A DNA stretch of 64,000 nucleotides from an uncultured Candidatus Rokubacteria bacterium (GCA_963708025.1 CAVPSB010000002.1:192001-256000); one strand, 5' to 3'; positions 4,924 through 54,313 are shown, numbered from the stretch's first letter. Program-made: numbers and translations. Notes: a model not told the origin generated them from the sequence alone.

Positions 4924-5044
4924 GCGCAGGTCCGCCCACGAGAGGTCCGGGAGGGGGCGTCGCCCCCCCCCCCGGGACTTCACCGACCGCCGGCGACGGC
5001 GCCCCGGCCGGGGCTCACCCGGGGAAGGGGCGGGAAGGAATCCC

Positions 5045-39338: not shown

Positions 39339-39410
39339 ATCATCTAGAGTAGCCGTCGCGAGCGTGGCCACCGACCAAGGGGCGGAGGTGGGCCCCGACT
39401 GGAGATCCCG

Positions 39411-40640
39411 ATGACGGCCGTGGCATCCCGCAACATCCGGTTCGTGGGCCATTCGGACCAGGGCGGCCGGAGCGACGGCGTCCAGGTCATGGTGCACCGG
39501 GGCTACGCCTACGTCGGCCACGGCTTCAGCAACGGCATCACGGTCGTGGACGTGCGGGACCCGAAGCACCCGCGGGTGGTCGACTTCATCGCCTGTCCGC
39601 CCAACACCCGCGCCATCCACCTCCAGACGCACGAGGATCTGCTGCTGGCGGTCAACGGGCCGAGCGTCTGGCACATGCAGGAGTTCCAGAACCTCCAGAG
39701 CTACTTCGCCGCGTCGCCGGCCGACGTGCTGAAGGACCGGGCGGGCAGCTTCGCCGCGGGGATCCGGGTCTACGACATCTCCCGGCCCGAGAAGCCGGCC
39801 GAGATCGGGTTCATGCCGGTGGAGGGCATCGGACCGCACCGGATCTGGTACACGGGCGGCCGGTACGCCTACGCCTCGATCCACTTCGCGGACTTCACCG
39901 ACCACATCCTCGCGGTCGTGGACGTGTCCAACCCCCGGAAGCCCGAGGTCGCCGGCCGCTGGTGGATCCCCGGCATGTGGCGCGGCGGGTCCGAGACGCC
40001 GACCTGGCGCACGGGGCGGCGCTATGCCCTCCACCACGCCCTGGTGGCCGGCAACCTCGCCTATGGCGCCTGGCGCGACGGCGGCCTCACCGTGCTCGAC
40101 GTCGCCGACCCGACCCGACCCCGGCTGATCGTGCATCGCAACTGGGACCCGCCGTTCGGCGGTGGGACCCACTCGCCGCTGCCCCTGCCCGATCGCAACC
40201 TGCTCGTCGTCGGCGACGAGCCCACCAGCGCCAACTGCAGCCAGGGCCTGCGCTACGTCTGGGTCTTCGACGTCCGCGAGCCGGCCAACCCCGTCAGCAT
40301 CGCCACCTGTCCCACGCCGGCCGAGGCGGACTACTGCGCCAAGGGCGGCAACTTCGGCCCGCACAACCTCCACGAGAACCGGCCGGGGGCGCTCCAGAGC
40401 TCGCGTCTGATCTTCGCCACCTACTACAACGCGGGGGTGCGCGTCTACGACATCGAGAACCCGTTCCAGCCGCGCGAGGTCGGCTTCTACGTGCCGGCCG
40501 ATCCCGAGCGGATGGTCGACCCGCGGCCGAACCGGCCCCGGGTGATCCAGTCCTGCGATTGCTACGTGGACCCCAGCGGGCTCATGTACGTGACCGACAG
40601 CAACGCCGGCCTCAACATCCTGCAATTCGAGGGTCCCTGA
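39411..40640 (+). CDS. LVIVD-repeat beta-propeller protein
   Basis: Repeated GITVVDVRDP / GIRVYDISRP / LAVVDVSNP / GLTVLDVADP / VFDVREP / GVRVYDIENP; no signal peptide. Confidence 0.82.
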   Translation: MTAVASRNIRFVGHSDQGGRSDGVQVMVHRGYAYVGHGFSNGITVVDVRDPKHPRVVDFIACPPNTRAIHLQTHEDLLLAVNGPSVWHMQEFQNLQSYFAASPADVLKDRAGSFAAGIRVYDISRPEKPAEIGFMPVEGIGPHRIWYTGGRYAYASIHFADFTDHILAVVDVSNPRKPEVAGRWWIPGMWRGGSETPTWRTGRRYALHHALVAGNLAYGAWRDGGLTVLDVADPTRPRLIVHRNWDPPFGGGTHSPLPLPDRNLLVVGDEPTSANCSQGLRYVWVFDVREPANPVSIATCPTPAEADYCAKGGNFGPHNLHENRPGALQSSRLIFATYYNAGVRVYDIENPFQPREVGFYVPADPERMVDPRPNRPRVIQSCDCYVDPSGLMYVTDSNAGLNILQFEGP

Positions 40641-40660
40641 CCGGGACCGGGAGGGATACG

Positions 40661-41834
40661 ATGCGACGACAACGGATCCGGCTCGCGCTCGCGGTGGTGC
40701 TGCTCGTCCTGGGGGCGGCGGCGGTCCCGGCATCGGCCCAGGACGTCGTCAGGCTCGCCATCGTCGCCGAGATCACCGGGGGCGGCGCCCCCTCGGGGAC
40801 CATGTGGCGCGACGGGGTGATCCTGGCGGCCGAGGACCTCAACAAGAAGGGCGGGATCATGGGACGCCGCCTGGAGACGTCCGTCATGGACACCCAGTCG
40901 GACCCCCCGACCTCCGTCGCGGTGATGCGGCGGGCGGTCAACGAGCGCCCGTTCGCCGTCATGGGGACGGTGTACAGCTCCAGCACCGTGGCCAACATGG
41001 ACATCGCCCGGCAGGCCGGCATCCCCCAGATCAGCGGCTCCGAGTCGGTGCTGGTCGTCCAGAAGGGGAACCCCAACATCTTCCTGACGTCCTTCAGCCA
41101 GCAGGTCGGGTTCGCCAAGCTGGTCCGCTGGCTGGTGGAGGACCTCAAGGCCGAGAAGATCGCCCTGATCTACGTGAACAACGCCTTCGGCAAGGGCGGG
41201 CGGGAGATGTTCCTGAAGTTCCTCAAGGACCGCGGCAAGTCGGTGGTGGCCGACATCTCCACCGAGGTGCAGCAGGCCGACTTCACGCCGGAGCTGACCC
41301 AGGTGCGGGCCGCCGGGGCCACCCACCTCATGGTCTACAACCACGAGGAGGAGAACGCGCGGATCATGATCCAGGTGCGCAAGATGGGGCTCGGTGTGGA
41401 GACGGTGGGGGACAACCTGTGCGCCCAGACCACCGTGGAAGCCGGCGGCGACGCGGTGAACGGCTCGAAGTGCCACGTCCCGATGACGGCGCTCTCGCCG
41501 ATCCCGAGCATGATGGAGGTGGGCAAGCGCCTGCAGGAGCGGTTCGGGCGGGTGCCGGATCACAACGCCTTCAAGGGGTACATCGGCGTGCACCTCCTGA
41601 AGGCGGCCGTCGAGCGGGTCGGGGCCTTCGACCAGGCCAAGATCCGCGACTGCCTCCACAACAACTTCTTCACCGACGGCCGACGAGCCCGGGCTCCTCA
41701 TGGACACCTACGTGGACGACAAGGGCGACGCCGACCGGCCCAGCTTCATCGTGGAGGTGAAGAACAAGCGGTCGGAGGTGACCAAGGTCCTGCCCTTGCT
41801 GGGCGGCCCGTACACCAAGCGCGCTTGTCGGTAG
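40661..41834 (+). CDS. branched-chain amino acid-type ABC substrate-binding protein (frameshift ~41678)
   Basis: Signal peptide; LNKKGGIMGRRLE, DTQSDP, QADFTPEL; the C-terminus DEPGLLMDTYVDDKGD...RACR* lies in a shifted frame. Confidence 0.85.
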
Positions 41835-41840
41835 CGTTCC

Positions 41841-41870
41841 CGGGGGGGTCGTCCGAGACCCCCCCGACGC
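41841..41870 (+). repeat. R1 core hairpin
   Basis: cgggggggtcgtccgagacccccccg. Confidence 0.65.
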
Positions 41871-41901
41871 CTTCCCCTCCGAGTCAGGCGAGGACGACGC
41901 C

Positions 41902-42776
<875 letters not shown>

Positions 42777-42780
<4 letters not shown>

Positions 42781-43754
42781 ATGTCCTCGGCTGGCGGAGG
42801 TGGCCGGTCGGGAGGCTCCTGCCGCTGGTGGCGCTCGCGCTCGGCGCGCTGCTGCCCCTGGCGTTCGAGCAGTACAAGCTCTACGTGGCGAGCCTGACGC
42901 TCGTGTACCTGATCATGGCCATCGGGCTCAACCTCACCCTGGGCTACGCCGGTCAGATCTCGCTCGCGCACGCCGCGTTCATGTCCTTCGGGGCCTACCC
43001 GGTCGCGATCCTCGGCCAGCGGGGGCTGCCGATCGAGCTGGGCCTCCTCATCGGGGCCGGGCTCGGGTTCGGCTGGGGCCTCGTCGTCGGCTTCCCGGCG
43101 CTGAAGGTCAAGCATCACTACCTGGCCATGGTCACGCTCGGGTTCAACATCATCGTCTTCCTCGTGCTCCGGAACTGGGAGTCGCTGACCGGCGGCTCCT
43201 TCGGGATCTCGGGGATCGCCCGGCCGGCCTGGGGTCCGATCAGCTTCACATCCGACCGCGCCTATTACGTCTACATCCTGGGCTGGGCGGCGGTCGTGGT
43301 GGCCTCGGCGTACTGGATCCTGACCTCCCGGTGGGGGCGCGCCTTCCGGGCGATCCGGGAGAACGAGATGCGTGCCGAGGTGGTCGGGGTGAGCCTGCGG
43401 AACTACAAGCTGATGGCCTTCGCCATCGGCGCCGCCTACGCGGGGATCGGCGGGGCGCTCTTCGCGCCCCTGCTCGGCTACATCGATCCCGGCGCCTTCA
43501 CGCTCGACCGCTCGATCCAGTTCCTGATGATGGTCGTGATCGGCGGGCTGGGGCGGTTCGAGGGTCCCTTCATCGGGGCGGTGCTGGTGACGGTCCTGCC
43601 CGAGGTGCTGCGGGCCTCGGAGGGGCTGTACCTGGTCATCTACGCGGCGGCGGTCATGCTCCTGATGCTGTTCATGCCCAAGGGGCTGGTCGGGCTGTGG
43701 GATCGCGCGGTGGCCCTGCTGGGAGCACGCCCATCCTCGAAATTCGGGACCTGA
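42777..43754 (+). CDS. livM: branched-chain amino acid ABC permease LivM
   Basis: GYAGQISLAHAAF, YLAMVTL, GRAFRAIRENE, PKGLVG. Confidence 0.88.
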
Positions 43755-44464
43755 CGAAGAACTTCTTCCGGATGTCGGCCCTGAGCGCGGTGAGCCTCGC
43801 CGTGGAGCCCGGCGAGCTCCTGGGCATCATCGGGCCGAACGGCTCCGGCAAGACGACGCTGTTCAACTGCGTCACCGGCGTCCTGCGGCCGTCGAGCGGG
43901 CAGGTCCGATTCAAGGGCCAGGACATCACGGGGCTCACCGCCGACCAGGTCTACCGCCGGGGCATCGCCCGGACGTTCCAGCTCATCCAGATCTTTCCCG
44001 AGATGACCGTGCTCGAGAACATGCTGATGGCGGCCCAGGAGCGGAAGGGCAGTCTGCTCGGGCGGCTGCTGCGGCGGGAAGAGACCGCGGAGACCGATCG
44101 GGCGAGGGGGCTACTGGAGTACCTCAACATCGCGGCGGTGAAGGACAACCTCGCCTCGAACCTGTCCTACGGGCAGCAGAAGCTCCTCGACTTCGGCATG
44201 GCGCTCATGCCCGAGCCCGAGGTGGTCCTGCTCGACGAGCCGCTGGCCGGCGTGAACCCGACGATGATCAACACCCTGGTGGGCCACATCCGGGAGCTGA
44301 ACGCCCGGGGGCACACGTTCGTCGTCATCGAGCACAACATGGAGGTCGTCATGTCGCTCTGCCGGCGCATCGTCGTCCTCAGCCAGGGCGAGCGCATCGC
44401 GGAGGGCACGCCGGCCGAGGTCGCCGACAACCCCCTGGTGCTCGACGCGTACTTCGGGAGGTGA
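43697..44464 (+). CDS. livG: ABC ATP-binding protein LivG
   Basis: GPNGSGKTT, ARTFQ, LSYGQQK, LLDEP, IEHNM; start uncertain. Confidence 0.88.
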   Translation: MGSRGGPAGSTPILEIRDLTKNFFRMSALSAVSLAVEPGELLGIIGPNGSGKTTLFNCVTGVLRPSSGQVRFKGQDITGLTADQVYRRGIARTFQLIQIFPEMTVLENMLMAAQERKGSLLGRLLRREETAETDRARGLLEYLNIAAVKDNLASNLSYGQQKLLDFGMALMPEPEVVLLDEPLAGVNPTMINTLVGHIRELNARGHTFVVIEHNMEVVMSLCRRIVVLSQGERIAEGTPAEVADNPLVLDAYFGR

Positions 44465-44467
44465 GCG

Positions 44468-45178
44468 GTGGCCCTGCTCGAGGTCCGGGACCTCCACGCC
44501 GGGTACGGGAAGATCGAGATCCTGAAGGGCGTGTCGCTCTCGGTCGAGGCCGGGCAGGTCGTCTCGATCATCGGCCCCAACGGGGCGGGCAAGTCCACGG
44601 TCTTCAAGACGCTCTTCGGGCTCCTGCCGGTCCGCCAGGGGCGCGTCCGCTTCGACGGCGAGGACGTCACCAGCCGCCCCCCGGCCGAGCTGCTGCGCCG
44701 CGGGATCGCCTACGTCCCCCAGGGGCGGAACGTCTTCCCCCTGATGTCGGTCGAGGAGAACCTGCGGCTGGGGGCCTACACCCGGCCGCGCTCGCGGGAG
44801 CTCGAGGGCGAGGTCGAGCGCGTGTACGAGACCTTCCCGGCGCTCCGCGAGGCCCGCCGGAAGCGGGCCGCCGACCTCTCGGGTGGCCAGCAGCAGATGC
44901 TGGAGATGGGCCGCGCCCTGCTGCTCCGGCCGCGGCTGATGCTGCTCGACGAGCCGACCCTCGGGCTGGCGCCGCTCGTCTTCCGGGAGATCTTCCGGAT
45001 CATCGGGGAGCTGCGGCGGCTCGGGCAGACCATCCTCATGGTCGAGCAGAACGCGGCCAAGGCCCTCGAGATCTCCGACTACGCCTACGTGCTCGAGCTG
45101 GGGCTGAACCGCTTCGAGGGCACCGGCGAGCAGATCCGGAACGACGAGCGCATCCGCCGTCTGTACCTCGGGCGATAG
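44468..45178 (+). CDS. livF: ABC ATP-binding protein LivF
   Basis: GPNGAGKST, LSGGQQQM, LDEPTLGLAP, VEQNA, YLG. Confidence 0.9.
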   Translation: MALLEVRDLHAGYGKIEILKGVSLSVEAGQVVSIIGPNGAGKSTVFKTLFGLLPVRQGRVRFDGEDVTSRPPAELLRRGIAYVPQGRNVFPLMSVEENLRLGAYTRPRSRELEGEVERVYETFPALREARRKRAADLSGGQQQMLEMGRALLLRPRLMLLDEPTLGLAPLVFREIFRIIGELRRLGQTILMVEQNAAKALEISDYAYVLELGLNRFEGTGEQIRNDERIRRLYLGR

Positions 45179-45201
45179 TCAGTCGAAGACGACCACGCCG
45201 C
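45166..45201 (+). repeat. left copy of 36-bp direct repeat (livF end + adh end)
   Basis: cctcgggcgatagtcagtcgaagacgaccacgccgc; 32/36 identical to 48969-49004. Confidence 0.85.
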
Positions 45202-45303
45202 CATCGAGCCGATCCTGGACATCTTCAAGACGCTTCTCAACGTGATCGCGGACCTCAGGGCGGCGACGATTCTCTCCGCTCGATCCGCTCCGGCTGCCGC
45301 CGG

Positions 45304-46413
45304 GTGATTCACTTCATCGTTCCCGGCGCGCAGGAATGGGGGATCCGCGACTACCTCAACCTCTACGCTCCGGCGCTCGCCCCACGGGTCAACGTGCTCC
45401 ACTACGAGGATCTACCGGAGCGGACCAGCGCAGCCTCGGGCACCTACATCTTCTCGGCGCTGGATCAGCTGAGTGTCGGGGGGAGGCGCCTGGCCGCGGA
45501 GCTGGCCGATCAGCTCGAGCAGCCGGGCGCCGGCTGTCGGGTGATCAATCATCCCGCCCGGGCGCTGCTTCGACTCGAGCTGCTCGAGACGCTCCACCGC
45601 GAGGGGCTCAACCAGCATCGGGCCGCCCGCGCCAACGGAGATCTCTCGACCCTCCGGTTCCCGGTCTTCCTCCGTGAGGAGTTCCAACACAGCGGGACGC
45701 TCACCCCGCTGCTCCAGACCCGCGCCGAGCTGGACCGGGCGCTGGGCCGCGCGGTGCTGCAAGGATTTCGGCTCCCGGAGCTCCTGGTGGTCGAGTTCTG
45801 CGAGACCGCCGATGCCGAAGGACGATACTGCAAGTACGCCGCATTCAAGATCGGCTCGGAGATCTTCGCGGACGGTTGGGAGCGGGGGCGGGAGTGGATG
45901 CTCAAGGCTGAGCAGAGCGAGCAGAGCGAGGCCAGGCTTCTGGAGGAACGAGTCTACGTTTTGGGCAATCCCCACGAACAGAGCCTTCGCCGGATCTTCG
46001 AGCTGGCCGGGGTCGAGTATGGCCGGATCGACTATGCGATCAAGGATGGGCGGGTGGAAACGTGGGAGATCAATCTGAATCCCACCATCCGACGAGGACG
46101 GCGTCCCGACTTCCGCCCCCTTCCCGAGGCGCTGGACCGGATCAAGGACGTGGCACGACAGCACTTCCTGGACCGGTTCGAGGCCGCGCTGGGGGGCCTG
46201 GACCCCGGCGGGCCGCCGGTCCAACTTCGACTTGCCTACGGTGAAGGATGTCGGGAAGAAGCGAAGCCGATGATCCGACCCGGCGGGCCGCGCGGATGGC
46301 TGGTACCGGTGGCAAGGGTGTTCCGGCCGATCGTGCCGTTCCTGGACCGGATGAGCCGGGCGTTCACTCCGCTCGTGGCTCGGGCGGCTCGGAGGCGGCG
46401 TAAGAGTCGCTAG
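45304..46413 (+). CDS. hypothetical protein with ATP-grasp-like motifs
   Basis: VINHP, FPVFLR, LVVEF, YGRIDY, WEINLNP; atypical codon usage. Confidence 0.65.
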   Translation: MIHFIVPGAQEWGIRDYLNLYAPALAPRVNVLHYEDLPERTSAASGTYIFSALDQLSVGGRRLAAELADQLEQPGAGCRVINHPARALLRLELLETLHREGLNQHRAARANGDLSTLRFPVFLREEFQHSGTLTPLLQTRAELDRALGRAVLQGFRLPELLVVEFCETADAEGRYCKYAAFKIGSEIFADGWERGREWMLKAEQSEQSEARLLEERVYVLGNPHEQSLRRIFELAGVEYGRIDYAIKDGRVETWEINLNPTIRRGRRPDFRPLPEALDRIKDVARQHFLDRFEAALGGLDPGGPPVQLRLAYGEGCREEAKPMIRPGGPRGWLVPVARVFRPIVPFLDRMSRAFTPLVARAARRRRKSR

Positions 46414-46810
46414 GGCCGTTCTCACGGCGCGACGGGTTGCCGCGGTTCGGGGTGGTCGGGATTCCACCCCCTACACTCGGATACGTTTATCTACGCCTCG
46501 TGGCCAGCGGGCAGATCCGCCTGCGGGGAGCGCTGGCAAACTCGGCGGTGGCGCTATATCCCGGCGGTGCTCAGTCAGCGAGGGCGAAGTGCGGCATGAC
46601 GCGCCGCGCACTGGCGCCAGAAGAATCGTCTTCGAGGGGCGTGCCTAATGCCGGGGTACGCCAGAAATCGCGTCTTCCTGGCAGTCACACCGCGAGCTAT
46701 GCTGAGCCACCTCAATTTCGACTGGACGATCTCACCCGCCACTCGCCCGGGGCCCGAACCGCGGGCTGGCGCAGGCGTGGAGCAGGAGGTACATTGACTC
46801 GGAGATCCCC

Positions 46811-47596
46811 ATGGCGAAGGCCGAAACGCCGCCGAGGCCGCCGCTCACCGCCTACCACGCGAGCGAAGAGGAGCGGGCCGGCTTCCTGCGCCGGATGTTC
46901 GACGGGGTCGCGCCGGACTACGACCGCATGGAGCAGCTGTTCACGATCGGGACCGGCTCCTGGTACCGCCGGCAGGCGCTGGCGCGGGCGGGCCTGACGC
47001 CCGGGATGCGGGTGGTCGACGTTGGCGCCGGCACGGGCCTGGTGGCGCGCGAAGCCGCGCGGCTGGTCGCCGATCCGGTGCTGGTCACCGGGGTCGATCC
47101 GAGCATCGGGATGCTGGCCTGTGCCAGGCTGCCCGCCGGGGTGCGGCGACTGGGCGGGCGGGCGGAGGCGATTCCCCTGGCGGACGGGAGCTGTGACTTC
47201 TTGAGCATGGGCTACGCATTGCGCCACGTCAGCGACCTCGCGACGGCCTTCCGCGAATTCCGGCGCGTCCTCAAGCCGGGCGGCCGGCTCTGTCTGCTGG
47301 AGATCACGAGGCCCGAGGGGCGTCTCAGCCGGGCCCTGCTCCGGGGCTACATGCGCCGGGTGATGCCGGCCGTCGTCCGGCTGGTCACGCGCTCGTCGGC
47401 CACGAGCGAGATGTGGCACTACTACTGGGACACCATGGAAGCCGCCGCGCCGCCGGCGCAGGTGATCGGCGCGCTCGAGGCCGCCGGCTTCACCGGGGTA
47501 CGGCGGCACATCGAAACGCCGCTCCTGAGCCTCTTCGCCGAGTACCAGGCGGTGAAGCCCGGGGCCGCGGCCGGCTCGGGCCCCGGCGGGTCCTGA
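46811..47596 (+). CDS. class I SAM-dependent methyltransferase (UbiE/MenG-like)
   Basis: MFDGVAPDYD, VDVGAGTG, GVDPS, GYALRHV, RVLKPGG. Confidence 0.85.
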   Translation: MAKAETPPRPPLTAYHASEEERAGFLRRMFDGVAPDYDRMEQLFTIGTGSWYRRQALARAGLTPGMRVVDVGAGTGLVAREAARLVADPVLVTGVDPSIGMLACARLPAGVRRLGGRAEAIPLADGSCDFLSMGYALRHVSDLATAFREFRRVLKPGGRLCLLEITRPEGRLSRALLRGYMRRVMPAVVRLVTRSSATSEMWHYYWDTMEAAAPPAQVIGALEAAGFTGVRRHIETPLLSLFAEYQAVKPGAAAGSGPGGS

Positions 47597-47656
47597 GCGG
47601 GCGGAGGAGCGGAACGGAATCCCCCCAGGGTGGCCGAGAATGGGCATTGTGTTGAC

Positions 47657-47732
47657 TCCCCCCCCCTCACCCTGCCCTCTCCCCGGTGGGGAGAGGGAGG
47701 TTCGAGGCCTGTTCCCTCTCCCCTGTGGAGAG
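47657..47732. repeat. BoxC-like R3 repeat(s)
   Basis: cccctcaccctgccctctccccggtggggagaggg plus a second ccctctcccc..ggagag. Confidence 0.7.
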
Positions 47733-47773
47733 ATGGAATATTCACCCATACTGGAAAACACTCGCGTGCGTTC

Positions 47774-47802
47774 TTGACAGAGGTGGAAAACGCCCGTAGC
47801 CT
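47774..47802 (+). promoter_or_regulatory. sigma70 promoter, probably leaderless transcript
   Basis: TTGACA-17 nt-TAGCCT; ATG 7 nt downstream of the -10; no SD. Confidence 0.6.
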
Positions 47803-47808
47803 GGGCGC

Positions 47809-48928
47809 ATGCGTGCCCGGGCTCGCTATCTCGAGGCGCAGGTCCGCCGGGACCTCGGGCGCAAGATGGTCTTCGTGGCGGGGCCACGCCAGGTCGGCAA
47901 GACCACCCTCGCCCGCCGGCTGCTTGGCGCGCGCCCCGGCTACCTCAACTGGGACGTGGCCGCAGATCGCGAGCGCATCCTCCGGGGCGAGCTGCCGCCC
48001 TCGGACTTCTGGGTCTTCGACGAGATCCACAAGTACCGGCTGTGGCGCGGCTTCCTCAAGGGGCTGTACGACGCCCGCCGCGCCCGGCAGCGCATCCTGG
48101 TCACCGGCAGCGCCCGGCTGGACTTCTACCGCCACGGGGGCGACTCGCTCCAGGGCCGCTATCACCTGCTCCGCCTGCATCCCCTCTCGGCGGGCGAGCT
48201 GGGGCTGCGCCGGCCGGGTGAGCTGGCGGACCTGCTCACCCTCGGCGGCTTCCCCGAGCCCTACTTCGGCGGCGACCGAGCGGGAGGCCCGGCGCTGGTC
48301 GCGCGAGTACCGCGTGCGCCTCGTGCGCGAGGAGCTGGCCAGCCTGGAGCGGGTGACGGACCTCGGGCGGATCGAGCTGCTGATGGTGCGCCTGCCCGAG
48401 CTGGTCGGCTCCCCGCTGTCGCTGAACGCGCTCCGGGAGGACCTCCAGGTCAGCCACGAGACGGTGGCCAACTGGGTGGCCATCCTGGAGCGCCTCTACG
48501 CCGTCTTCCGCGTGGCCCCGTTCGGGGCGCCGCGCCTCCGGGCGGTGCGAAAGGAGCAGAAGCACTACCACCTCGACTGGACGCTGGTGCCCGGCGACCC
48601 ACAGCGCTTCGAGAACCTGGTCGGGGCGCACCTCCTCAAGTGGGTGCACTTCCGGGAGGACACGGAGGGCCGCGACGTGGAGCTGCGCTACTTCCGCGAC
48701 GTGGACGGGCGCGAGGTGGACTTCGTGGTCGTCGAGGGCCGCCGGCCGACCCACCTCGTCGAGTGCAAGTGGGCGGACGCGCCCGTGGACCGCGGCCTGC
48801 GCTACCTCAAGGCGCGCTTCCCCTCGTGCGAGGCGTGGCAGGTCTCCGCCGTGGGGACGAAAGACTTCGTGAGCCCCGAGGGCATCCGCGTCGCGCCGGC
48901 GCTCGAGTTGCTGCGCGGGCTGCCCTGA
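47809..48928 (+). CDS. AAA+ ATPase (AAA_14) with DUF4143 domain (frameshift ~48275)
   Basis: GPRQVGKTT, FDEIHK, VTGSA, GDSLQGRY, GGFPE, FENLV, YFRD..GREVDFV, ECK. Confidence 0.88.
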
Positions 48929-48942
48929 CGCTCGGCGGCGGC

Positions 48943-48968
48943 CCCCTCACCCCGACCCTCTCCCCGGG
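48943..48968. repeat. BoxC-like R3 repeat (partial)
   Basis: cccctcaccccgaccctctccccgg. Confidence 0.65.
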
Positions 48969-49004
48969 CCTGGGGCGATAGTCAGTCGAACACCACGACG
49001 CCGC
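48969..49004 (+). repeat. right copy of 36-bp direct repeat
   Basis: cctggggcgatagtcagtcgaacaccacgacgccgc. Confidence 0.85.
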
Positions 49005-50076
49005 GGGCGACCTGGCCGCCGCGCATGGCGGCGAAGCCCTCGTTGATGTCGTCGATCGGGTAGGTGCGGCTGACCAGGGGATCGAGCTTGAGGCGCCCGT
49101 CGAGGTAGAGGTCCACCAGGATCGGGAAGTCGAGGTTGGGGCGGACGGAGCCGTACATGGTGCCCTTGAGCACCTTCTCCTGCACCGCCATCCAGTACGG
49201 CGCGATGGGGGCGGTGACCGCCTGGGGCGCCATCCCGACGACCACGGCGGTGCCCCCGGGGCGGACGGCCTCGAGGATCTGGAGGGTCGTTTTCTCGCTG
49301 CCGATGGCGTCGAAGGCGTAGTCCGCGCCCCGGCCGCCGGTGAGCGCCCGCACCCGCTCGACGACATTCTCGCGCTGCGCGTTGACGGTGTGGGTGGCCC
49401 CGAACTCGCGCGCGAACTCGAGCTTGTTGGGCAGCAGGTCGCACGCGATGATCCGGCCCGCGCCGGCCAGGCGCGCGCCCTGGACGACGTTCAGGCCGAC
49501 GCCGCCGCAGCCGATCACGACCACCGAGGCCCCCGCCTCCACCTGGGCGCAGCGGTTGACCGCGCCCCAGCCGGTGGGCACGCAGCAGCCGATCAGCGCG
49601 GCCTGGGGCCACGGCATCTCCTTGCGGATCGGCACCAGCATCTCGGCCGGACACACCACCGATTCCGAGAAGGTGCCGATGCGGGCCATCTGGCTGATGC
49701 CCTGGCCCTTCCACCACACGCGGTAGGTCCCGTCCAGCATGAGCCCCCGCGTCGCGGTGTGACCGTCGCAGAGGATCGAGCGCCCCATCGAGCAGTAGAG
49801 GCAGCGCCCGCAGTGGGGGCGGAACGAGAAGATCACGTGATCGCCCGGTCCCACACCGGACACCCCGGCCCCGACCTCCTCCACGACGCCGGCCGCCTCG
49901 TGGCCGAGCACCATGGGCAGCGGGGTCGGCCAGTCGCCGTTCATGATGTGCCAGTCGCTGTGGCAGATCCCGGCCCCCCTGACCTTGACCCGGGCCTCGC
50001 CCGACCGCGGGCCCTCCTGCTCCACCTCGACCACGTCCAGACGGCTGTTCGGCTCGAAGCACACGGCGGCCTTCAT
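48982..50076 (-). CDS. Zn-dependent alcohol dehydrogenase (class III-like MDR)
   Basis: GICHSD, LGHEAAG, CGRCLYC...C, GCGGVG, ARGVVVFD. Confidence 0.9.
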   Translation of the reverse strand: MKAAVCFEPNSRLDVVEVEQEGPRSGEARVKVRGAGICHSDWHIMNGDWPTPLPMVLGHEAAGVVEEVGAGVSGVGPGDHVIFSFRPHCGRCLYCSMGRSILCDGHTATRGLMLDGTYRVWWKGQGISQMARIGTFSESVVCPAEMLVPIRKEMPWPQAALIGCCVPTGWGAVNRCAQVEAGASVVVIGCGGVGLNVVQGARLAGAGRIIACDLLPNKLEFAREFGATHTVNAQRENVVERVRALTGGRGADYAFDAIGSEKTTLQILEAVRPGGTAVVVGMAPQAVTAPIAPYWMAVQEKVLKGTMYGSVRPNLDFPILVDLYLDGRLKLDPLVSRTYPIDDINEGFAAMRGGQVARGVVVFD

Positions 50077-50172
50077 CCTCGGTCTCTCCCTGTGGGCGCC
50101 GGGCGATCGTCGGCCGGCGCGGGTCCGCGTCTCGTCCTTCGTCCTTGGGCGTCCTTGGGCGTCCTTGGGGGA

Positions 50173-51168
50173 TCAGAGCCTCAGCAGCCGGCGGGCGTTG
50201 CCTTCCAGGATCAGCGCCTTGTCCTCGACGGTCCAGGCCGGGTGGCCGGTGACGACCTCGACCGGCCGCTCGTAGGCGATGGGGAAGCAGTAGTCGCTCC
50301 CCATCATGACGCGGTCGGCCCCCACCAGCCGCTCGAGATAGTCGAGGGGCTGCTCGGCGTAGCCGATGGTGTCGTAGTAGAAGCGCCGAAGATAGTCCAT
50401 GGGCCCGCGCTCGCGCCCCCGCAGCTCGGGACGCTTCTGCCAGCCGCGCTGGAGCCGCCCGACCAGGTAGGGGAAGGCGCCGCCCGCGTGGGGCAGCACC
50501 ACCACCAGGTTCGGGAAGCGGTCGAGCACCCCGCCGAAGACGAGGTGAGCGGCGGCGATCGCCGACTCGAACGGGTTGCCGAGCAGGTTGGTGAGGTAGT
50601 ACTTCGTCAGTCGCTGGTGGCCGATGACGCTCACCGGATGCAGGAAGATCGGCAGCCCCAGCGCGTCGAGGCGCTCGTAGACCGGGAAGAAGCCCTCGTC
50701 GGACAGCTCCTTGTCGCGCACCGCGGTGGCCATGTACACGCCCCGGATCCCCGGCAGCCGGGCCGCCCGCTCGAGCTCCCGGGCGGCCAGGTCCGGCTCG
50801 CTCATCGGCAGCATGGCCAGGCCGTAGAGCCGCTGCGGGTGCTTGCCGTGTGCCTCGGCCAGCGCGTCGTTGAACGCCTCGGCCAGCCCGTGGGCGAGGG
50901 CGCGCCCGGCCCAGTAGACCATGGGCTGGGTGAGCGAGAGCACGTGGACGGCCACGCCCTGCTCGTCCATCGCCGCCAGGCGGGCGTCGAGATCGATGAA
51001 GCGCGGTCCGAGCGGTCCGGCCACCACCTCGCGCACCTTCACGAACGGCTGGCCCTCGACCAGTGAGTACTCGGCGCCGAACTCGGCGCCCTGGTCCCGG
51101 ATGAGCCCCAGGTAGCGCTCCGGGTAGTAGTGGGCGTGGACGTCGATCGGGTGGTGGGGCTGGGTCAC
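50173..51168 (-). CDS. amidohydrolase family (ACMSD/LigW-type decarboxylase-like)
   Basis: DVHAH, LAAMDEQGV, FLHP, PHAGG, FYYDT, GSDY, GNARRLL. Confidence 0.88.
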   Translation of the reverse strand: MTQPHHPIDVHAHYYPERYLGLIRDQGAEFGAEYSLVEGQPFVKVREVVAGPLGPRFIDLDARLAAMDEQGVAVHVLSLTQPMVYWAGRALAHGLAEAFNDALAEAHGKHPQRLYGLAMLPMSEPDLAARELERAARLPGIRGVYMATAVRDKELSDEGFFPVYERLDALGLPIFLHPVSVIGHQRLTKYYLTNLLGNPFESAIAAAHLVFGGVLDRFPNLVVVLPHAGGAFPYLVGRLQRGWQKRPELRGRERGPMDYLRRFYYDTIGYAEQPLDYLERLVGADRVMMGSDYCFPIAYERPVEVVTGHPAWTVEDKALILEGNARRLLRL

Positions 51169-51376
51169 GGGTTCCTCCGGCTCTTCGGCGCGGGCCTCGT
51201 GCGACGGCCTAGTATGCCACAATCCTGCGGGCGAGTTCCCGGCCGCCCGACGATTGACAGCGATTCTCCGGCAGCGCTGGAGTCGGATCCGCAGCGACGG
51301 CCTGACCGGTGTCGCGTGGTCGCATCACGACCGAGTCCGTCCTGACATCGGCGACGCCCGGCCGTCGGAGGATGAC

Positions 51377-51678
51377 ATGAGGATGCTGGGACCACTCCTG
51401 GCGCTGGCCCTGGTCGGGGCGCCGGTCGCGACCGGCGCCGGCGACGTCGCCTTGACGATCGACGGCCGCAAGTTCGGCGCCGGAAGGAGAAGGGATGGGG
51501 CACGACCCATCCCGAGGCGATCCGCAACGGCGAGTGGGAGTACGGTCTGTTCACGGCCGACGGCAAGCCGATCCCGATCAACACGGAGCAGGCGTGCATG
51601 CCCTGCCACAAGCGCTTCGAGGCCACCGACTACACCTTCCTCGTCCACAACTACTTCGCCGATCAGGTCAAGAAGTAG
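51377..51678 (+). pseudogene. cytochrome P460/c'-beta family remnant (signal peptide + heme-binding C-terminus, out of frame)
   Basis: MRMLGPLLALALVGAPVA at 51377; the frame from 51481 reads KEKGWGTTHPEAIRNGEWEYGLFTADGKP...ACMPCHKRFEATDYTF* (CxxCH). Confidence 0.7.
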
Positions 51679-51690
51679 CGCTGAGCGGGG

Positions 51691-52728
51691 CTAACCGGGG
51701 GCGGGAGGACGCCCGTGGAGCCCGGCGGCCCAGTAGGCGTGCTCCACGAGGCGCAGCGTCTCGAGGTTGTCCGTCGGGTCGGTCTCGAATGGCGTGCCGG
51801 TCTCGAGACAGTCCACGAAGTGCGCGATCACGCCGTCGAAGCTGGCCTGGTAGCCCTGGTCGCCGTCGTAGCGGATGCGGCGCGGCTCCGGCCCGAGTAG
51901 CGTGAGCTCCCAGTCGGCGAACACGGCACTCGCCCGGCTGCCGATCAGCTCGAGCCGGTCCGAGGACCGGGACGGGTAACCGGGGGCGGCCATGGTGCCG
52001 GTCACGGTGACTGGCACCCCGGCGGCGGTCTCCAGGAAGATGGCGGCGAGCGTCTCCCCCACCACGTCCGGGAGCGTGCGGCTGGCGCGGGCGCTCACGA
52101 CGCGGAGCGGGCCGCACAGGAAGCGCACGACGTCGAGCTGGTGGATCAGGGACTCGGAGATCATGAGCCGCCGCTCGCGGGCCATGAACGGCTGGCGCTC
52201 GAGCGCGGGCCGGCGGCCGGCGGCGTCGGGCAGGAGGCCCGAGGAGCTCGCCGAGAGCTGCGCGAGCGCGAGGTCTCCCAGCTCGCCGGCGGCGATCCAG
52301 CGCGCGAGCTCGCGATACCAGGGCCGGAAGCGCCAGTTCTCGTGCACCATGAGGCGCATCCGCCCCTCGACGCGCCGGACCAGGGCCTCGGCCTCGGCGA
52401 GGGTCGGCGTGAGCGGCTTCTGGCAGAGCACGTCGATCCCGCGGGCGGCGGCCGCCTGGACCCAGGCCGCGTGGGTCTCCCGGGGCGAGGCCACGTCGAG
52501 GGCGTCGATGGTCTCGGCCGCGAACATGGAGGCGGCGTCCCGATAGACGGCGGGGATCCCGAACTCTTCCGCGCGGGCGCCGGCTCGCCGCGGATCGGGG
52601 TCGCACACCGCCACCACCCGGACCCGGGGCGCGAGGGCTCGCCAGGCGACGAGGTGGTACCAGCTGATCATGCCGGCCCCGGCCAGGGCCACCCGGATCG
52701 GAGCCACTCGCGACGTGGGCACGGCCAT
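51691..52728 (-). CDS. Gfo/Idh/MocA family oxidoreductase
   Basis: GAGMISWYHL, VCDPD, VLCQKP, HENWRFRP, IHQLDV. Confidence 0.88.
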   Translation of the reverse strand: MAVPTSRVAPIRVALAGAGMISWYHLVAWRALAPRVRVVAVCDPDPRRAGARAEEFGIPAVYRDAASMFAAETIDALDVASPRETHAAWVQAAAARGIDVLCQKPLTPTLAEAEALVRRVEGRMRLMVHENWRFRPWYRELARWIAAGELGDLALAQLSASSSGLLPDAAGRRPALERQPFMARERRLMISESLIHQLDVVRFLCGPLRVVSARASRTLPDVVGETLAAIFLETAAGVPVTVTGTMAAPGYPSRSSDRLELIGSRASAVFADWELTLLGPEPRRIRYDGDQGYQASFDGVIAHFVDCLETGTPFETDPTDNLETLRLVEHAYWAAGLHGRPPAPG

Positions 52729-52984
52729 CGATGATCCCCCGGGGTTCGAGGACGAGTTGGTCTTCGCCGCCGCCCGTCGGCCGACGCCGCCGGCTGGCGC
52801 GCAGTCGTACGATACGTGGAGGCCCCGGGCCGACGCAATCGCGTCTCGCCGGGCTGGTGGCGCCGCCGGAGACCCGGGAGGAGGCACCTTGACGCTTCCT
52901 CGGGTCCCGTTCTAGTGTGGGCCCCGACGAGCTCTTTTACCTTCGACGACCTCCGGAATCACCGACCTCGGAAGGGAGGACACC

Positions 52985-54313
52985 ATGGAGACCAGCGGCG
53001 TTCATGCCGGCCAGCCTTCACCGGGAGAGCCGAGCCGGCGACGGTGGCTCGGGAGCGCGGCCCTGGCTGTCGCGATCGGGCTCCTCACCGTGGTGCCGGC
53101 GGCTGCCGAGACGGTCATCACGATGTGGAGCCACGAGGCCGACCAGCCGTCCAAGGTGGCCTGGCGGGAGGCGGCCGCCCGGGCCCTCGAGAAGAAGAAC
53201 CCGGACGTCAAGGTCAAGATCACGTGGTACGACAAGCCCGCCCTGTACGCCGCGCTGAAGACGGCCCTTCGGGCCGGGCAAGCGCCCGACATCTTCTACG
53301 ACGAGCCGGACCAGACCGAGTACATCACCAACGGATTCCTGCTCCCGCTCGACGAGCTGGTCAACTGGGGCAACATTCACGAGTGGGCCCGGCAGGTCTG
53401 GACCCACGGCGGCAAGACGTACGCGTTGCCCCAGGAGGTCTACACGGTCGAGCTCTACTACAACAAGGAGCTCATGAAGAAGGTGGGCGTGGACCTGCCC
53501 CCCAGCGGCCAGGTCAGCCAGAGCCAGTTCCTCGACATCGTGAAGAAGTCGGCGGCCGCCGGCATCACACCGATCGTTCAGGGCGTCGGCGATCGGCCGT
53601 ACCCCGGCGCCTACATGCTGGAGGAGCTCCTTCTCAAGAAGCTCGGCCGGGACGACTACGGGAAGCTGCTGGCCGGGAAGCTCTCCTACAAGGACCCCCG
53701 GGTCGTGCAGGTCTTCACGTACGTCAAGACCCTGGTCGACGCCGGCGCCTACCCGAAGAGCTTCGCGACGCTGAAGCTGGGCGAGTCCCACTACTACTTC
53801 CACACGAAGCCCGCCGGGTTGATGTTCCCCATGGGGAGCTGGTACACGGCACGCGCCTTCGTGCCGCCCGACAAGGGCGGCCAGCCGGACAACTTCCCGC
53901 TCGGGATCATGAGCGTGCCGGCCGTGGACGGCGCCGCATGCAACCAGTGCAAGACGCTCGCCGTCGGCGCCAGCTTCTCGATCAACGCGGCCACCAAGCA
54001 CCCGAAGCTCGCCGCCGGGATGCTGAACGAGATGGCGACCCCCGAGATGGGCGCATCCTGGCTGAGCACGATCCTGCTCCAGACGGCGATCAAGACCGAC
54101 ATGAGCAAGATCAGCGGAAAGTACGCCTCCTACTTCCAGGAGCTGGGCGAGCGCAACAAGGGGGCCGAGTACTTCATCGGGATCCCGATCGACCATCTGA
54201 AGGGGCAGTGCCGTGACACGTTCGTGCAGGTCATGAACACCGCCTTCCCGGGCGGCCTCCTCGCCGTCGACAAGGCCGTGGACATGATGAATCAGGCCTG
54301 CTTCGCCGGCTAG
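52985..54313 (+). CDS. ABC extracellular solute-binding protein (CUT1)
   Basis: RRRWL leader; APDIF; YALP; YYNKELM; upstream TTGACG-18 nt-TAGTGT promoter candidate at 52889. Confidence 0.88.
   Translation: METSGVHAGQPSPGEPSRRRWLGSAALAVAIGLLTVVPAAAETVITMWSHEADQPSKVAWREAAARALEKKNPDVKVKITWYDKPALYAALKTALRAGQAPDIFYDEPDQTEYITNGFLLPLDELVNWGNIHEWARQVWTHGGKTYALPQEVYTVELYYNKELMKKVGVDLPPSGQVSQSQFLDIVKKSAAAGITPIVQGVGDRPYPGAYMLEELLLKKLGRDDYGKLLAGKLSYKDPRVVQVFTYVKTLVDAGAYPKSFATLKLGESHYYFHTKPAGLMFPMGSWYTARAFVPPDKGGQPDNFPLGIMSVPAVDGAACNQCKTLAVGASFSINAATKHPKLAAGMLNEMATPEMGASWLSTILLQTAIKTDMSKISGKYASYFQELGERNKGAEYFIGIPIDHLKGQCRDTFVQVMNTAFPGGLLAVDKAVDMMNQACFAG

What the first reader, a model, noticed from the sequence alone, without database searches (positions are those of the whole stretch)
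45166..49004. 3.8-kb integrase-free insert bounded by a duplicated livF/adh gene junction (att-like)
Seen: 45166-45201 and 48969-49004 are 32/36 identical, with an 18-bp perfect core gggcgatagtcagtcgaa. Each copy contains the livF end (L-G-R-stop, + strand) abutting the adh end (RGVVVFD-stop, - strand). All four mismatches are synonymous in the relevant frame. The functional livF end is in the left copy and the functional adh end is in the right copy. Right after the left copy is an orphan coding tail (IEPILDIFKTLL...AAG*, 45203-45307) whose TGA overlaps the ATP-grasp GTG. Inference: livF and adh were once directly convergent, and the ATP-grasp, methyltransferase and AAA+/DUF4143 genes were inserted with the gene ends regenerated, as in site-specific integration. 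No recombinase is encoded here.
Basis: partly seen in the sequence, partly recalled or inferred. Interest (0 to 1): 0.72.

Follow-up and report, generated by a model that had tools for sequence, protein, structure and literature searches.

The report
Patchwork insert between livF and adh
A 3.8-kb patchwork of foreign and decaying genes sits between two tail-to-tail genes and is flanked by a short duplicated copy of their junction; its cut-off edges look like accidental DNA joining, not the work of a dedicated integration enzyme.

Summary
The repeat is real. 45166-45201 and 48969-49004 match at 32/36, and the 18-bp core occurs only at these two places in the 8.17-Mb genome. Each copy holds the livF end abutting the adh end, so a direct livF/adh junction existed and was duplicated around 3.8 kb.

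The insert is not a discrete att-bounded element. It is a mosaic:
- The "orphan tail" is the last ~35 codons of a sodium:dicarboxylate symporter (SDF) gene. In Gemmatimonadota and Acidobacteriota that gene sits directly upstream of homologues of the ATP-grasp-fold gene. This block has a lower GC3 (0.81 against 0.97-0.99).
- A 232-bp IS256-family remnant.
- A UbiE-like methyltransferase.
- A frameshifted AAA_14/DUF4143 gene that matches the PADLOC candidate PDC-S01 and is patchily spread.
- A REP-like hairpin cut through at the right junction.

The left junction lies inside the SDF gene, at a likely 5-nt microhomology. I favour illegitimate recombination with target duplication (0.55) over site-specific integration (0.12). 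No empty site was found in relatives. One metagenome contig carries an adh allele with the left-copy 3' end, and its meaning is unresolved. Interest is low to moderate.

The parts
44468..45178 (+). livF-type ABC ATPase, intact; ends ...LYLGR-TAG inside the left repeat copy
   Evidence: Pfam ABC_tran E 2.4e-34. NCBIfam UrtE/LivF-like, below the curated cut-offs. Orthologues at 78-90% identity in 20 relatives, full length.
45166..45201 (.). Left copy of the duplicated junction: functional livF end plus a 23-nt relic of an adh 3' end (45179-45201, minus strand, GGVVVFD-stop)
   Evidence: In run X20 a contig matches up to 45201 and then continues as an adh allele (table 5c).
45170..45187 (.). Perfect 18-bp core, left copy
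   Evidence: only two copies in the whole assembly.
45197..45307 (+). Relic of the 3' end (about 35 codons) of a sodium:dicarboxylate symporter (SDF) gene; its TGA overlaps the next gene's GTG
   Evidence: tblastn matches the C-terminus of the gene directly upstream of ATP-grasp homologues (L094, 72% over 32 aa, E 1e-9, plus at least 14 more loci). Those genes are PF00375 SDF. Nucleotide similarity to L094 starts at GCCGCC, 45197. GC3 0.82.
45304..46413 (+). 369-aa conserved hypothetical protein with an ATP-grasp fold (LysX/ArgX/RimK/Ddl-like); intact
   Evidence: No hit in Pfam, NCBIfam or PADLOC. 333 homologues of about 365 aa. AlphaFold pLDDT 87.9. Foldseek PDB top hits ArgX, LysX, Ddl, RimK, E 2.5e-10 to 3e-8. 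GC3 0.81.
46495..46726 (+). Remnant of the right end of an IS256-family (Mutator-type) insertion sequence: last codons of the transposase plus the IS end
   Evidence: 79% identity over 232 nt to G000 C25:9484-9701, and 82% over 68 nt to C37:3279-3345. The C25 copy ends a truncated ORF that hits PF00872 Transposase_mut, E 4.6e-18.
46811..47596 (+). UbiE/COQ5-like SAM-dependent methyltransferase; intact
   Evidence: Pfam Ubie_methyltran E 2.2e-27. NCBIfam UbiE/MenG models below the cut-offs. Best relatives in the order reach only 42-50% identity.
47661..47737 (.). Two REP-like hairpins (CCCTCTCCCC-loop-GGGGAGAGGG type)
   Evidence: D11, I10. Same family as the genome-wide motif, 143 hits.
47809..48928 (+). 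AAA_14 / DUF4143 ATPase gene, a PADLOC PDC-S01-like candidate defence gene, broken by a +1 frameshift at 48277/48278
   Evidence: AAA_14 E 5.4e-21 in one frame and DUF4143 E 6.6e-22 in another. PDC-S01 E 1.3e-21 and 2.2e-19. Contigs of X1, X4 and X6 lack one base at 48277/8, while X20 reads like the window (table 4).
48942..48972 (.). REP-like element that keeps its leader, first arm and loop but lacks the second arm; it abuts the right repeat copy
   Evidence: (D7), by comparison with full copies such as the one on C9.
48969..49004 (.). Right copy of the duplicated junction: 9-13-nt relic of the livF end plus the functional adh end
48982..50076 (-). Zn-dependent alcohol dehydrogenase (adh); intact
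   Evidence: Pfam ADH_N and ADH_zinc_N. NCBIfam TIGR03989, below the cut-off. Orthologues at 73-81% identity in 22 relatives, all ending RGV[VI]VF.

Best explanation
Mechanism. livF and adh once lay tail to tail with their stop codons abutting. DNA from elsewhere was joined into that junction by illegitimate, microhomology-guided recombination, not by a site-specific recombinase, and about 27-36 bp of the target was duplicated. The process could have been double illegitimate recombination, homology-facilitated illegitimate recombination, or template switching during replication.

Contents. The insert is a junkyard-type islet that was either built in several steps or imported as an already mosaic piece. 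It holds:
- a 5'-truncated SDF transporter gene with its intact ATP-grasp partner, acquired from outside the lineage;
- an IS256-family stump;
- a UbiE-like methyltransferase;
- REP-like hairpins;
- a horizontally spreading AAA_14/DUF4143 (PDC-S01-like) gene that is now frameshifted.

The two copies. They differ only by C/G wobble changes. The likely reason is that the flanking functional genes, or one copy of the junction, come from a different allele of the same locus, exchanged by homologous recombination between strains. In-place neutral decay is less likely.

Shown: the repeat, the gene identities, the truncations, the mosaic structure, and the patchy or foreign distribution.

Inferred: the microhomology lengths, the order of events, and the allelic origin of the mismatches.
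For: 1. The left junction lies inside a gene. The tail is the C-terminus of an SDF transporter. In 29 of 76 genome loci with enough upstream sequence, an SDF gene ends within 200 nt of the ATP-grasp homologue's start; for L094 the script scored a second pair in that locus, and the pair nearest the window's gene (SDF 3769-5004, homologue from 5001) is shown. The GTGA stop/start overlap is the same in L094 and in the window.

2. Similarity to L094 starts at GCCGCC (45197), while the adh-derived stretch runs to 45201. That gives an overlap of up to 5 nt (GCCGC) at the join.

3. The right junction cuts a REP-like hairpin. The leader, first arm and loop are present, and the second arm is replaced by the livF end from GGGG onward.

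4. The insert is made of blocks with separate histories.
- Tail plus ATP-grasp has GC3 0.81-0.82, against 0.93-0.99 for every other gene listed.
- Homologues occur in only 7 of 183 genomes of the order, at no more than 44% identity. They reach 76% in a Gemmatimonadales MAG and 96% or 91% in metagenome proteins.
- Metagenome contigs at 95-98% identity leave the window's sequence at 45204 and at 46428 (table 8, records 3, 5, 28).
- The AAA block (47751-48937) occurs in 10 of 183 genomes of the order, in 0 of 20 of the window's own family, yet at up to 92% aa identity in the other family.

5. An IS256-family stump lies in the middle.

6. No Pfam recombinase was found in any frame of the insert, or among the screened ORFs of the window that I scanned.

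7. The 23-nt adh relic in the left copy reads the same as the 3' end of a natural adh allele in run X20. That contig continues to encode ...TGQVARGVVVFD (my translation, table 5c). This fits two alleles rather than drift.
Against: - A perfect core flanked by imperfect arms that regenerate both gene ends is also what attL/attR look like.
- The microhomology rests on a relative that is only 76% identical at the protein level (L094). The 95%-identical contig in X1 aligns only from 45204, so the donor's bases at 45197-45203 are unknown.
- A target duplication of 27-36 bp is longer than those usually reported for illegitimate insertions (recalled, not checked).
- The four wobble-only differences need an extra step: allelic exchange, or a donor that carried the same junction.
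- No empty site and no donor locus were recovered, so neither the order nor the number of events has been observed.
- Assembly correctness at the two junctions was not checked with reads.
Confidence: 0.55

Rival explanations
1. Site-specific integration. The 3.8-kb segment is an integrase-less, cis-mobilisable cassette. Its attP mimics the livF/adh junction, a recombinase encoded elsewhere acted within the 18-bp core, and the two copies are attL and attR.
For: A perfect 18-bp core sits inside a 36-bp imperfect repeat, and both gene ends are regenerated. The differences are confined to wobble positions, as expected if the element's copy came from another strain's junction. The left-type adh end exists as a real allele in X20.
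Against: - The similarity stops exactly where a truncated transporter gene begins on the left and inside a REP hairpin on the right. There are no element-specific arms.
- The cargo blocks occur separately and in other contexts.
- The livF/adh adjacency was not seen in 22 adh-orthologue loci or 20 livF-orthologue loci, so a dedicated site is unlikely.
- The core is absent elsewhere in the genome. All 6 exact matches in the metagenome collection lack livF and adh.
- No joint skipping 3803 bases is among the 15 joints displayed, although 105 further joints were not shown.
Confidence: 0.12
2. Two-lineage mosaic or segmental duplication. Two full copies of the livF-junction-adh region, from two strains or from a duplication, once lay in one genome with other DNA between them. 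Later deletions removed most of adh-1 and most of livF-2, leaving the two short relics.
For: The copies differ like alleles: C/G wobble changes only. The left relic equals a natural adh allele. In G155 the same AAA gene block is flanked by 105-nt direct repeats at 89% identity that are pieces of a host gene, a comparable layout.
Against: It needs more events: one acquisition or duplication plus two independent deletions. No second copy of this liv operon or of adh orthologous sequence remains (own-genome paralogues reach only 61% for livF and 48% for adh). 5 of the 6 other AAA loci examined show no flanking repeat of 18 nt or more beyond apparent chance matches.
Confidence: 0.2
3. Assembly artefact. 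Contigs of two strains were joined at the repeat, so the arrangement does not exist in any one cell.
For: The assembly scores 8.18% contamination. The runs hold several strains at 90-99% identity.
Against: The exact repeat is only 18 bp, shorter than usual assembly words (my general knowledge). All 30 depth bins have cover in all four runs (table 2). X20 holds contigs identical or nearly identical to the window inside the insert and in adh (records 12 and 15). The truncations at both junctions are biological signatures that a mis-join would not create. No displayed contig was shown to bridge either junction.
Confidence: 0.05

Closest known systems
Illegitimate integration of foreign DNA at microhomologies (homology-facilitated and double illegitimate recombination described for Acinetobacter baylyi; short-patch double illegitimate recombination)
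   Same: Foreign DNA is joined without a recombinase at short GC-rich microhomologies. Genes at the ends of the fragment are truncated. Target bases can be lost or duplicated.
   Different: This case is inferred from one natural genome, not observed experimentally. The duplication (27-36 bp) and the insert (3.8 kb, mosaic) are large, and the two copies are not identical. The older Acinetobacter papers are recalled and were not read. For SPDIR I saw only the search listing and the start of the abstract of bioRxiv 10.1101/2023.11.22.568220.
Integrase-less att-flanked elements (cis-mobilisable elements, CIMEs, of streptococci; recalled, not read)
   Same: Direct repeats flank cargo that lacks its own recombinase, and the gene end at the target is regenerated.
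   Different: CIMEs derive from integrative elements and keep true att sites recognised by a related element's integrase. Here the repeat is bounded by a truncated gene and a truncated REP, and no cognate element or second site was found.
Genomic islets between convergent genes (accretion of IS stumps, REPs, defence genes and other accessory genes)
   Same: The location is between two 3' ends, where insertions do little harm. The content is an IS256 remnant, REP-like hairpins, a patchy PDC-S01-like gene and a foreign metabolic gene.
   Different: Such islets are not usually flanked by a recognisable duplication of the ancestral gene junction.
SDF transporter + ATP-grasp gene pair of Gemmatimonadota/Acidobacteriota
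   Same: The gene order and the overlapping GTGA stop/start are the same as in L094. The ATP-grasp protein is 76% identical over the best segment.
   Different: In the window the transporter is reduced to about 35 codons, and the conserved NVTGD stretch reads NVIAD. The function of the pair is uncharacterised: the ATP-grasp member hits no Pfam, NCBIfam or PADLOC model.

Membership tests
Site-specific integrated element (attL/attR) | Flanking direct repeats with an identical core | tested here: met
   32/36 repeat with an 18-bp perfect core.
Site-specific integrated element (attL/attR) | A recombinase in the element or a cognate one acting in trans | tested here: not met
   No integrase or resolvase Pfam hit in any frame of the insert, or in the other window ORFs scanned. 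Only a transposase stump is present. A trans-acting enzyme cannot be tested with these tools.
Site-specific integrated element (attL/attR) | A discrete unit with fixed ends that recurs as a whole | tested here: not met
   The blocks occur separately. The ATP-grasp block leaves the window's sequence at 45204 and 46428 in metagenome contigs. The AAA block spans 47751-48937 in 9 other genomes with other flanks. No second copy exists in the genome.
Site-specific integrated element (attL/attR) | Empty site or excised form in relatives or in the population | tested here: inconclusive
   No livF/adh adjacency in 22 adh and 20 livF orthologue loci. The metagenome core scan gave 6 matches, none near livF or adh. 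One X20 contig joins 45201 to adh, but the extent of its left side is unknown.
Illegitimate-recombination insertion | Junctions at arbitrary points that truncate genes or elements | tested here: met
   Left: the SDF gene is cut to its last ~35 codons. Right: the REP-like hairpin lacks its second arm.
Illegitimate-recombination insertion | Short microhomology at the joins | tested here: inconclusive
   Up to 5 nt (GCCGC) on the left, judged against L094, and GGG(G) on the right, judged against the REP consensus. The true donor sequences are not in hand.
ATP-grasp superfamily (45304-46413) | ATP-grasp fold | tested here: met
   Model pLDDT 87.9, pTM 0.84. Foldseek PDB hits ArgX, LysX, Ddl, RimK, probability 1.00, TM 0.39-0.58.
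ATP-grasp superfamily (45304-46413) | Match to a curated sequence family | tested here: not met
   No Pfam, NCBIfam or PADLOC hit.
IS256 family (46495-46726) | Mutator-type transposase | tested here: met
   The window holds only the 3' stump. Its 79%-identical copy on C25 ends an ORF that hits PF00872, E 4.6e-18. Terminal inverted repeats and target duplication were not examined.
PADLOC PDC-S01 candidate defence gene (47809-48928) | HMM match over both halves | tested here: met
   PDLC04790: E 1.3e-21 for the N part (profile 12-156 of 422) and 2.2e-19 for the C part (193-385 of 422).
PADLOC PDC-S01 candidate defence gene (47809-48928) | Intact reading frame | tested here: not met
   The two domains are in different frames. 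There is one extra base at 48277/8 relative to contigs of X1, X4 and X6.
SDF (PF00375) transporter (45197-45307) | Homology to the family | tested here: met
   The tail aligns to the C-termini of the upstream genes of the ATP-grasp homologues. Three of those genes (L094, L106, L109) were tested, and all three hit PF00375. Only about 35 of about 411 codons remain.

The most novel reading that the evidence does not exclude
The AAA_14/DUF4143 (PDC-S01-like, ATPase plus nuclease-like domain) gene could itself be the mobile agent. In this reading it enters new genomes together with neighbouring DNA and leaves imperfect duplications of the target: 36 nt at 89% here, and 105 nt at 89% around the same gene in G155. 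Alternatively, the whole segment is a recombinase-less cassette moved in trans through the 18-bp core. Either would be an undescribed route of gene insertion that regenerates the ends of host genes.
Probability: 0.08. Interest if true: 0.7.

Novelty: new member of a known kind. Interest (0 to 1): 0.3.

Why it matters
This is a clean natural example, in an uncultured high-GC soil bacterium, of how accessory DNA settles between convergent genes without harming them. The duplicated junction preserves both gene ends and records the ancestral state. The truncated SDF gene and the cut REP hairpin record the breakpoints. Footprints like these are rarely readable in metagenome-assembled genomes.

It also flags two things worth knowing:
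- a widespread, unannotated ATP-grasp family paired with SDF transporters;
- a patchily distributed, often broken PDC-S01-like gene that appears to move between families of this order.

It does not reveal a new integration system.

Tried and rejected
- Empty site in relatives. 22 adh-orthologue loci, 20 livF-orthologue loci and 18 loci with up to 10 kb downstream of livF showed no livF/adh adjacency and no cargo. Synteny around both genes is poor, and adh's upstream neighbour is not conserved either. The test therefore has no power.\n- Exact-core scan of metagenome contigs. It gave 6 matches, none beside livF or adh, with GC 0.40-0.71. That used the only metagenome scan, so I could not fetch the JGI contigs behind P0001 and P0002 (96% and 91% identical ATP-grasp proteins).\n- Tail searched against 5.8 billion proteins with lengths 'longer'. 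39 candidates, none at E <= 0.01. The tail was identified only through genome loci.\n- Rfam on 44000-50500. Only two sub-threshold chance hits. No tRNA in 40000-54000.\n- The 232-bp conserved non-coding piece was first considered as a regulatory RNA. It proved to be an IS256-family end.\n- Runs. 20 rows hold parts of the stretch, none holds half of its words. Four were laid as contigs only. No excision joint skipping 3803 is among the 15 joints shown, but 105 were not shown, so this says nothing either way. Parts without cover are not interpreted.\n- Genome-wide scan for similar isolated unique direct repeats. About 70 pairs, many of them tRNA ends or bits of paralogous coding sequence. No recurrent class like this one stood out, but I did not examine each pair.\n- The earlier-findings look-up returned nothing.\n- The literature search on DUF4143/AAA_14 gave no useful paper.

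Full report
**The observation**

The two 36-nt stretches at 45166-45201 and 48969-49004 are identical at 32 positions and share a perfect 18-nt core (family D2). With up to two mismatches the core occurs twice in the window, and none of 100 shuffles gives two matches. It occurs at no third place in the 49 contigs (8.17 Mb) of the assembly. The window is C2:192001-256000 of that assembly.

livF (44468-45178, +; ABC_tran) ends L-G-R-TAG in the left copy. adh (48982-50076, -; ADH_N and ADH_zinc_N) ends RGVVVFD-TGA in the right copy. Each copy also carries the end of the other gene.

The four mismatches are all C/G transversions at third codon positions: one Leu codon in the livF frame and three Val codons in the adh frame. 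By my own rough count, four random differences would all fall on third positions about once in 80 trials.

**What lies between the copies**

The segment is a mosaic, not one unit.

- **45197/45203-45307, the "orphan tail".** It is the C-terminus of a sodium:dicarboxylate symporter (SDF).
  - It aligns to the end of the gene directly upstream of homologues of the next gene. The best match is the Gemmatimonadales locus L094 (72% over 32 aa, E 1e-9), and at least 14 further loci match.
  - The upstream genes of L094, L106 and L109 hit PF00375 (E 4e-55 to 2e-71).
  - An SDF gene ends within 200 nt upstream in 29 of 76 loci that have enough upstream sequence; for L094 the script scored a second pair in that locus, and the pair nearest the window's gene (SDF 3769-5004, homologue from 5001) is shown.
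  - The GTGA stop/start overlap is shared by L094 and the window.
  - About 35 of roughly 411 codons remain. The conserved NVTGD stretch reads NVIAD.
- **45304-46413, an intact 369-aa protein.**
  - It has no Pfam, NCBIfam or PADLOC hit.
  - It has 333 homologues of about 365 aa.
  - It has a confident ATP-grasp fold: pLDDT 87.9, and Foldseek top hits ArgX, LysX, Ddl and RimK at E about 1e-10 to 3e-8.
- **Origin of tail plus ATP-grasp gene.**
  - Their GC3 is 0.81-0.82, against 0.99 for livF, 0.97 for adh, 0.93 for the methyltransferase and 0.94/0.98 for the two AAA gene parts.
  - In the organism's own order only 7 of 183 genomes have a homologue, at no more than 44% identity.
  - The best genome hits are Gemmatimonadales (76%), other Gemmatimonadota, Acidobacteriota and Thermoanaerobaculia.
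  - Metagenome proteins reach 96% and 91% identity.
- **46495-46726, an IS256-family stump.** It is 79% identical over 232 nt to C25:9484-9701 of the same genome, and 82% identical over 68 nt to a site on C37. On C25 this stretch ends a truncated ORF that hits PF00872, the Mutator-family transposase, at E 4.6e-18.
- **46811-47596, a UbiE/COQ5-like methyltransferase**. Homologues in the order reach only 42-50% identity.
- **47661-47737, two REP-like hairpins.** The family is abundant in this genome: 143 hits of the arm motif.
- **47809-48928, an AAA_14 / DUF4143 gene in two frames**.
  - Contigs of runs X1, X4 and X6 lack one base at 48277/48278, while X20 reads like the window (table 4).
  - Removing one C restores ...FGGDEREARRW... 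(my reading).
  - Both halves match the PADLOC candidate PDC-S01 (E 1e-21 and 2e-19).
  - The gene block (47751-48937 at nucleotide level) occurs in 10 of 183 genomes of the order and in 0 of 20 of the window's own family. In the other family it reaches 92% aa identity, and several copies are split or carry stop codons. That pattern points to recent horizontal spread followed by decay.
- **48942-48972, a REP-like element missing its second arm.** The leader, first arm and loop are present. Where GGGGAGAGGG should follow, the sequence reads GGGGCGATAG, which is the livF end of the right copy.

**The junctions**

On the left, the adh-derived stretch runs to 45201 (...CACGCCGC). Nucleotide similarity to the L094 SDF gene starts at 45197 (GCCGCCATCGAGCCGATC). 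The join therefore lies inside a gene, within up to 5 shared bases.

On the right, the join lies within the run of G's between a REP loop and the livF end. The first mismatch of the repeat (cctC/cctG) may belong to the REP loop rather than to livF. In that case the true duplication begins with the core.

Contigs of related strains agree that these are breakpoints (table 8):
- A 603-nt contig of X1 matches 45204-45560 at 95% identity and then continues for 246 nt to the left with sequence unlike the window.
- Contigs of X1 and X6 leave the window's sequence at 46428.
- An X20 contig continues for 129 nt unlike the window to the right of 48929.

Truncated genes and elements at both ends, short shared bases, and blocks that live in other contexts are the marks of illegitimate recombination. 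They are not the marks of an element with defined att sites.

**Why the copies differ only at wobble positions**

In-place neutral decay should hit all codon positions of the non-functional relics and should favour transitions. It did neither.

In one search (table 5c) a contig of X20 matches up to 45201. It then carries 17 letters that are 12/17 like 49005-49021, and it continues in adh from 49022. Translated by me, it reads ...TGQVARGVVVFD-stop. An adh allele with exactly the left-copy 3' end therefore exists in nature.

The simplest reading is that the two junction copies stem from two alleles of the same locus. There are two ways this could have happened:
- the functional adh (and livF) end was later exchanged by homologous recombination between strains;
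- one junction copy arrived with donor DNA from a strain that had the same junction.

I could not see how far that contig reaches to the left, so it may or may not be an empty site.

**Tests of the att model**

- No recombinase domain was found in any long frame of the insert, or in the other window ORFs that I scanned. The neighbours are transport and metabolic genes.
- The core has no further copy in the genome.
- The six exact matches in the metagenome collection are unrelated to livF and adh.
- None of 22 adh-orthologue loci (73-81% aa) has livF or cargo within about 1.5 kb.
- None of 20 livF-orthologue loci (78-90%) has adh or cargo above 50% identity.
- None of 18 loci with up to 10 kb downstream of livF has any homologue of window ORFs from 30-64 kb, apart from the liv genes and one neighbouring gene.
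- In 18 of 19 relatives livF ends CG[CGT]-TGA, while here it ends CGA-TAG directly against the adh stop. The junction itself is therefore a derived feature of this lineage, which makes an element adapted to it unlikely.

Because synteny is poor throughout, the lack of an empty site carries no weight either way.

**A parallel case**

In G155 (locus L196) the same AAA gene block (976-2159) is flanked by 105-nt direct repeats (787-891 and 2166-2270) at 89% identity (93/105). These repeats are the 5' part of a minus-strand host gene. The other five AAA loci examined show only short, low-identity matches. One parallel is not a pattern, but it keeps open the idea that this gene travels with neighbouring DNA and leaves target duplications.

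**Verdict**

The site-specific reading is not supported.

The most likely history is illegitimate, microhomology-guided joining with duplication of about 27-36 bp of the target, plus allelic exchange in the flanks. The joined DNA was an accreting or pre-assembled mosaic of foreign and decaying DNA (confidence 0.55).

Rivals:
- a trans-mobilised att cassette (0.12);
- a two-lineage or duplicated locus trimmed by deletions (0.20);
- an assembly artefact (0.05).

This is a nicely legible but ordinary kind of genome change.

Unpublished genomes G038, G055 and G064 enter only the tallies and the genome sets searched. No specific claim rests on them.

Noticed in passing
window 46495-46726: 232-bp remnant of an IS256-family element (last transposase codons plus the IS end). 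It is 79% identical to a truncated copy on contig C25 and 82% identical to a 68-nt end fragment on C37. No full-length copy appeared in the assembly by blastn.
   Followed up: yes
window 48277-48278: One extra base splits the AAA_14/DUF4143 gene into two frames. Contigs of three other runs lack it, while X20 has it. It could be a real mutation or a consensus error.
   Followed up: partly
L196 (G155:C82) 787-891 and 2166-2270: The orthologous AAA_14/DUF4143 block is flanked by 105-nt direct repeats at 89% identity that are the 5' part of a host gene. A second 33-nt repeat (917-949 / 2583-2615) covers that gene's start.
   Followed up: partly
window 47661-47737, 48942-48972, and genome-wide: An abundant REP-like family: leader CCCCTCACCC[TC]G[AC], then a CCCTCTCCCC-loop-GGGGAGAGGG hairpin. 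The arm motif has 143 hits in the assembly. Other G/C-rich repeat families are also very common.
   Followed up: partly
window 45170-45184 against relatives L034-L053: livF ends CGA-TAG here, with the adh stop directly abutting, but TGA in 18 of 19 relatives. The livF stop seems to have been supplied by the rearrangement that brought adh next to it.
   Followed up: partly
G028:C97, G035:C102, G052:C17 (relatives): Homologues of the methyltransferase (42-48%) lie divergently next to adh paralogues (44-46%). A methyltransferase/adh pairing may therefore be older than this locus.
   Followed up: no
own genome, outside the window: C25:26008-26058, C49:1266-1307, C18:60616-60657, C44:24909-24940, C2:13744-13773: Isolated direct repeats of 30-51 nt at 98-100% identity that I read by eye as tRNA 3' halves (not checked with a tRNA finder), 1.9-11.7 kb apart. 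They are candidate classical integrated elements or duplicated tRNA genes.
   Followed up: no
L094 (Gemmatimonadales MAG) 3769-6119 and 8262-~10900: Two SDF-transporter/ATP-grasp-homologue pairs lie within 7 kb of each other, so the pair is duplicated in that genome.
   Followed up: no
window 39348-40637 and L078, L079: The LVIVD-repeat protein encoded upstream of the liv permease genes here lies downstream of livF in two relatives (G006, G001; 78-80% identity). The gene order around the liv operon is fluid.
   Followed up: no
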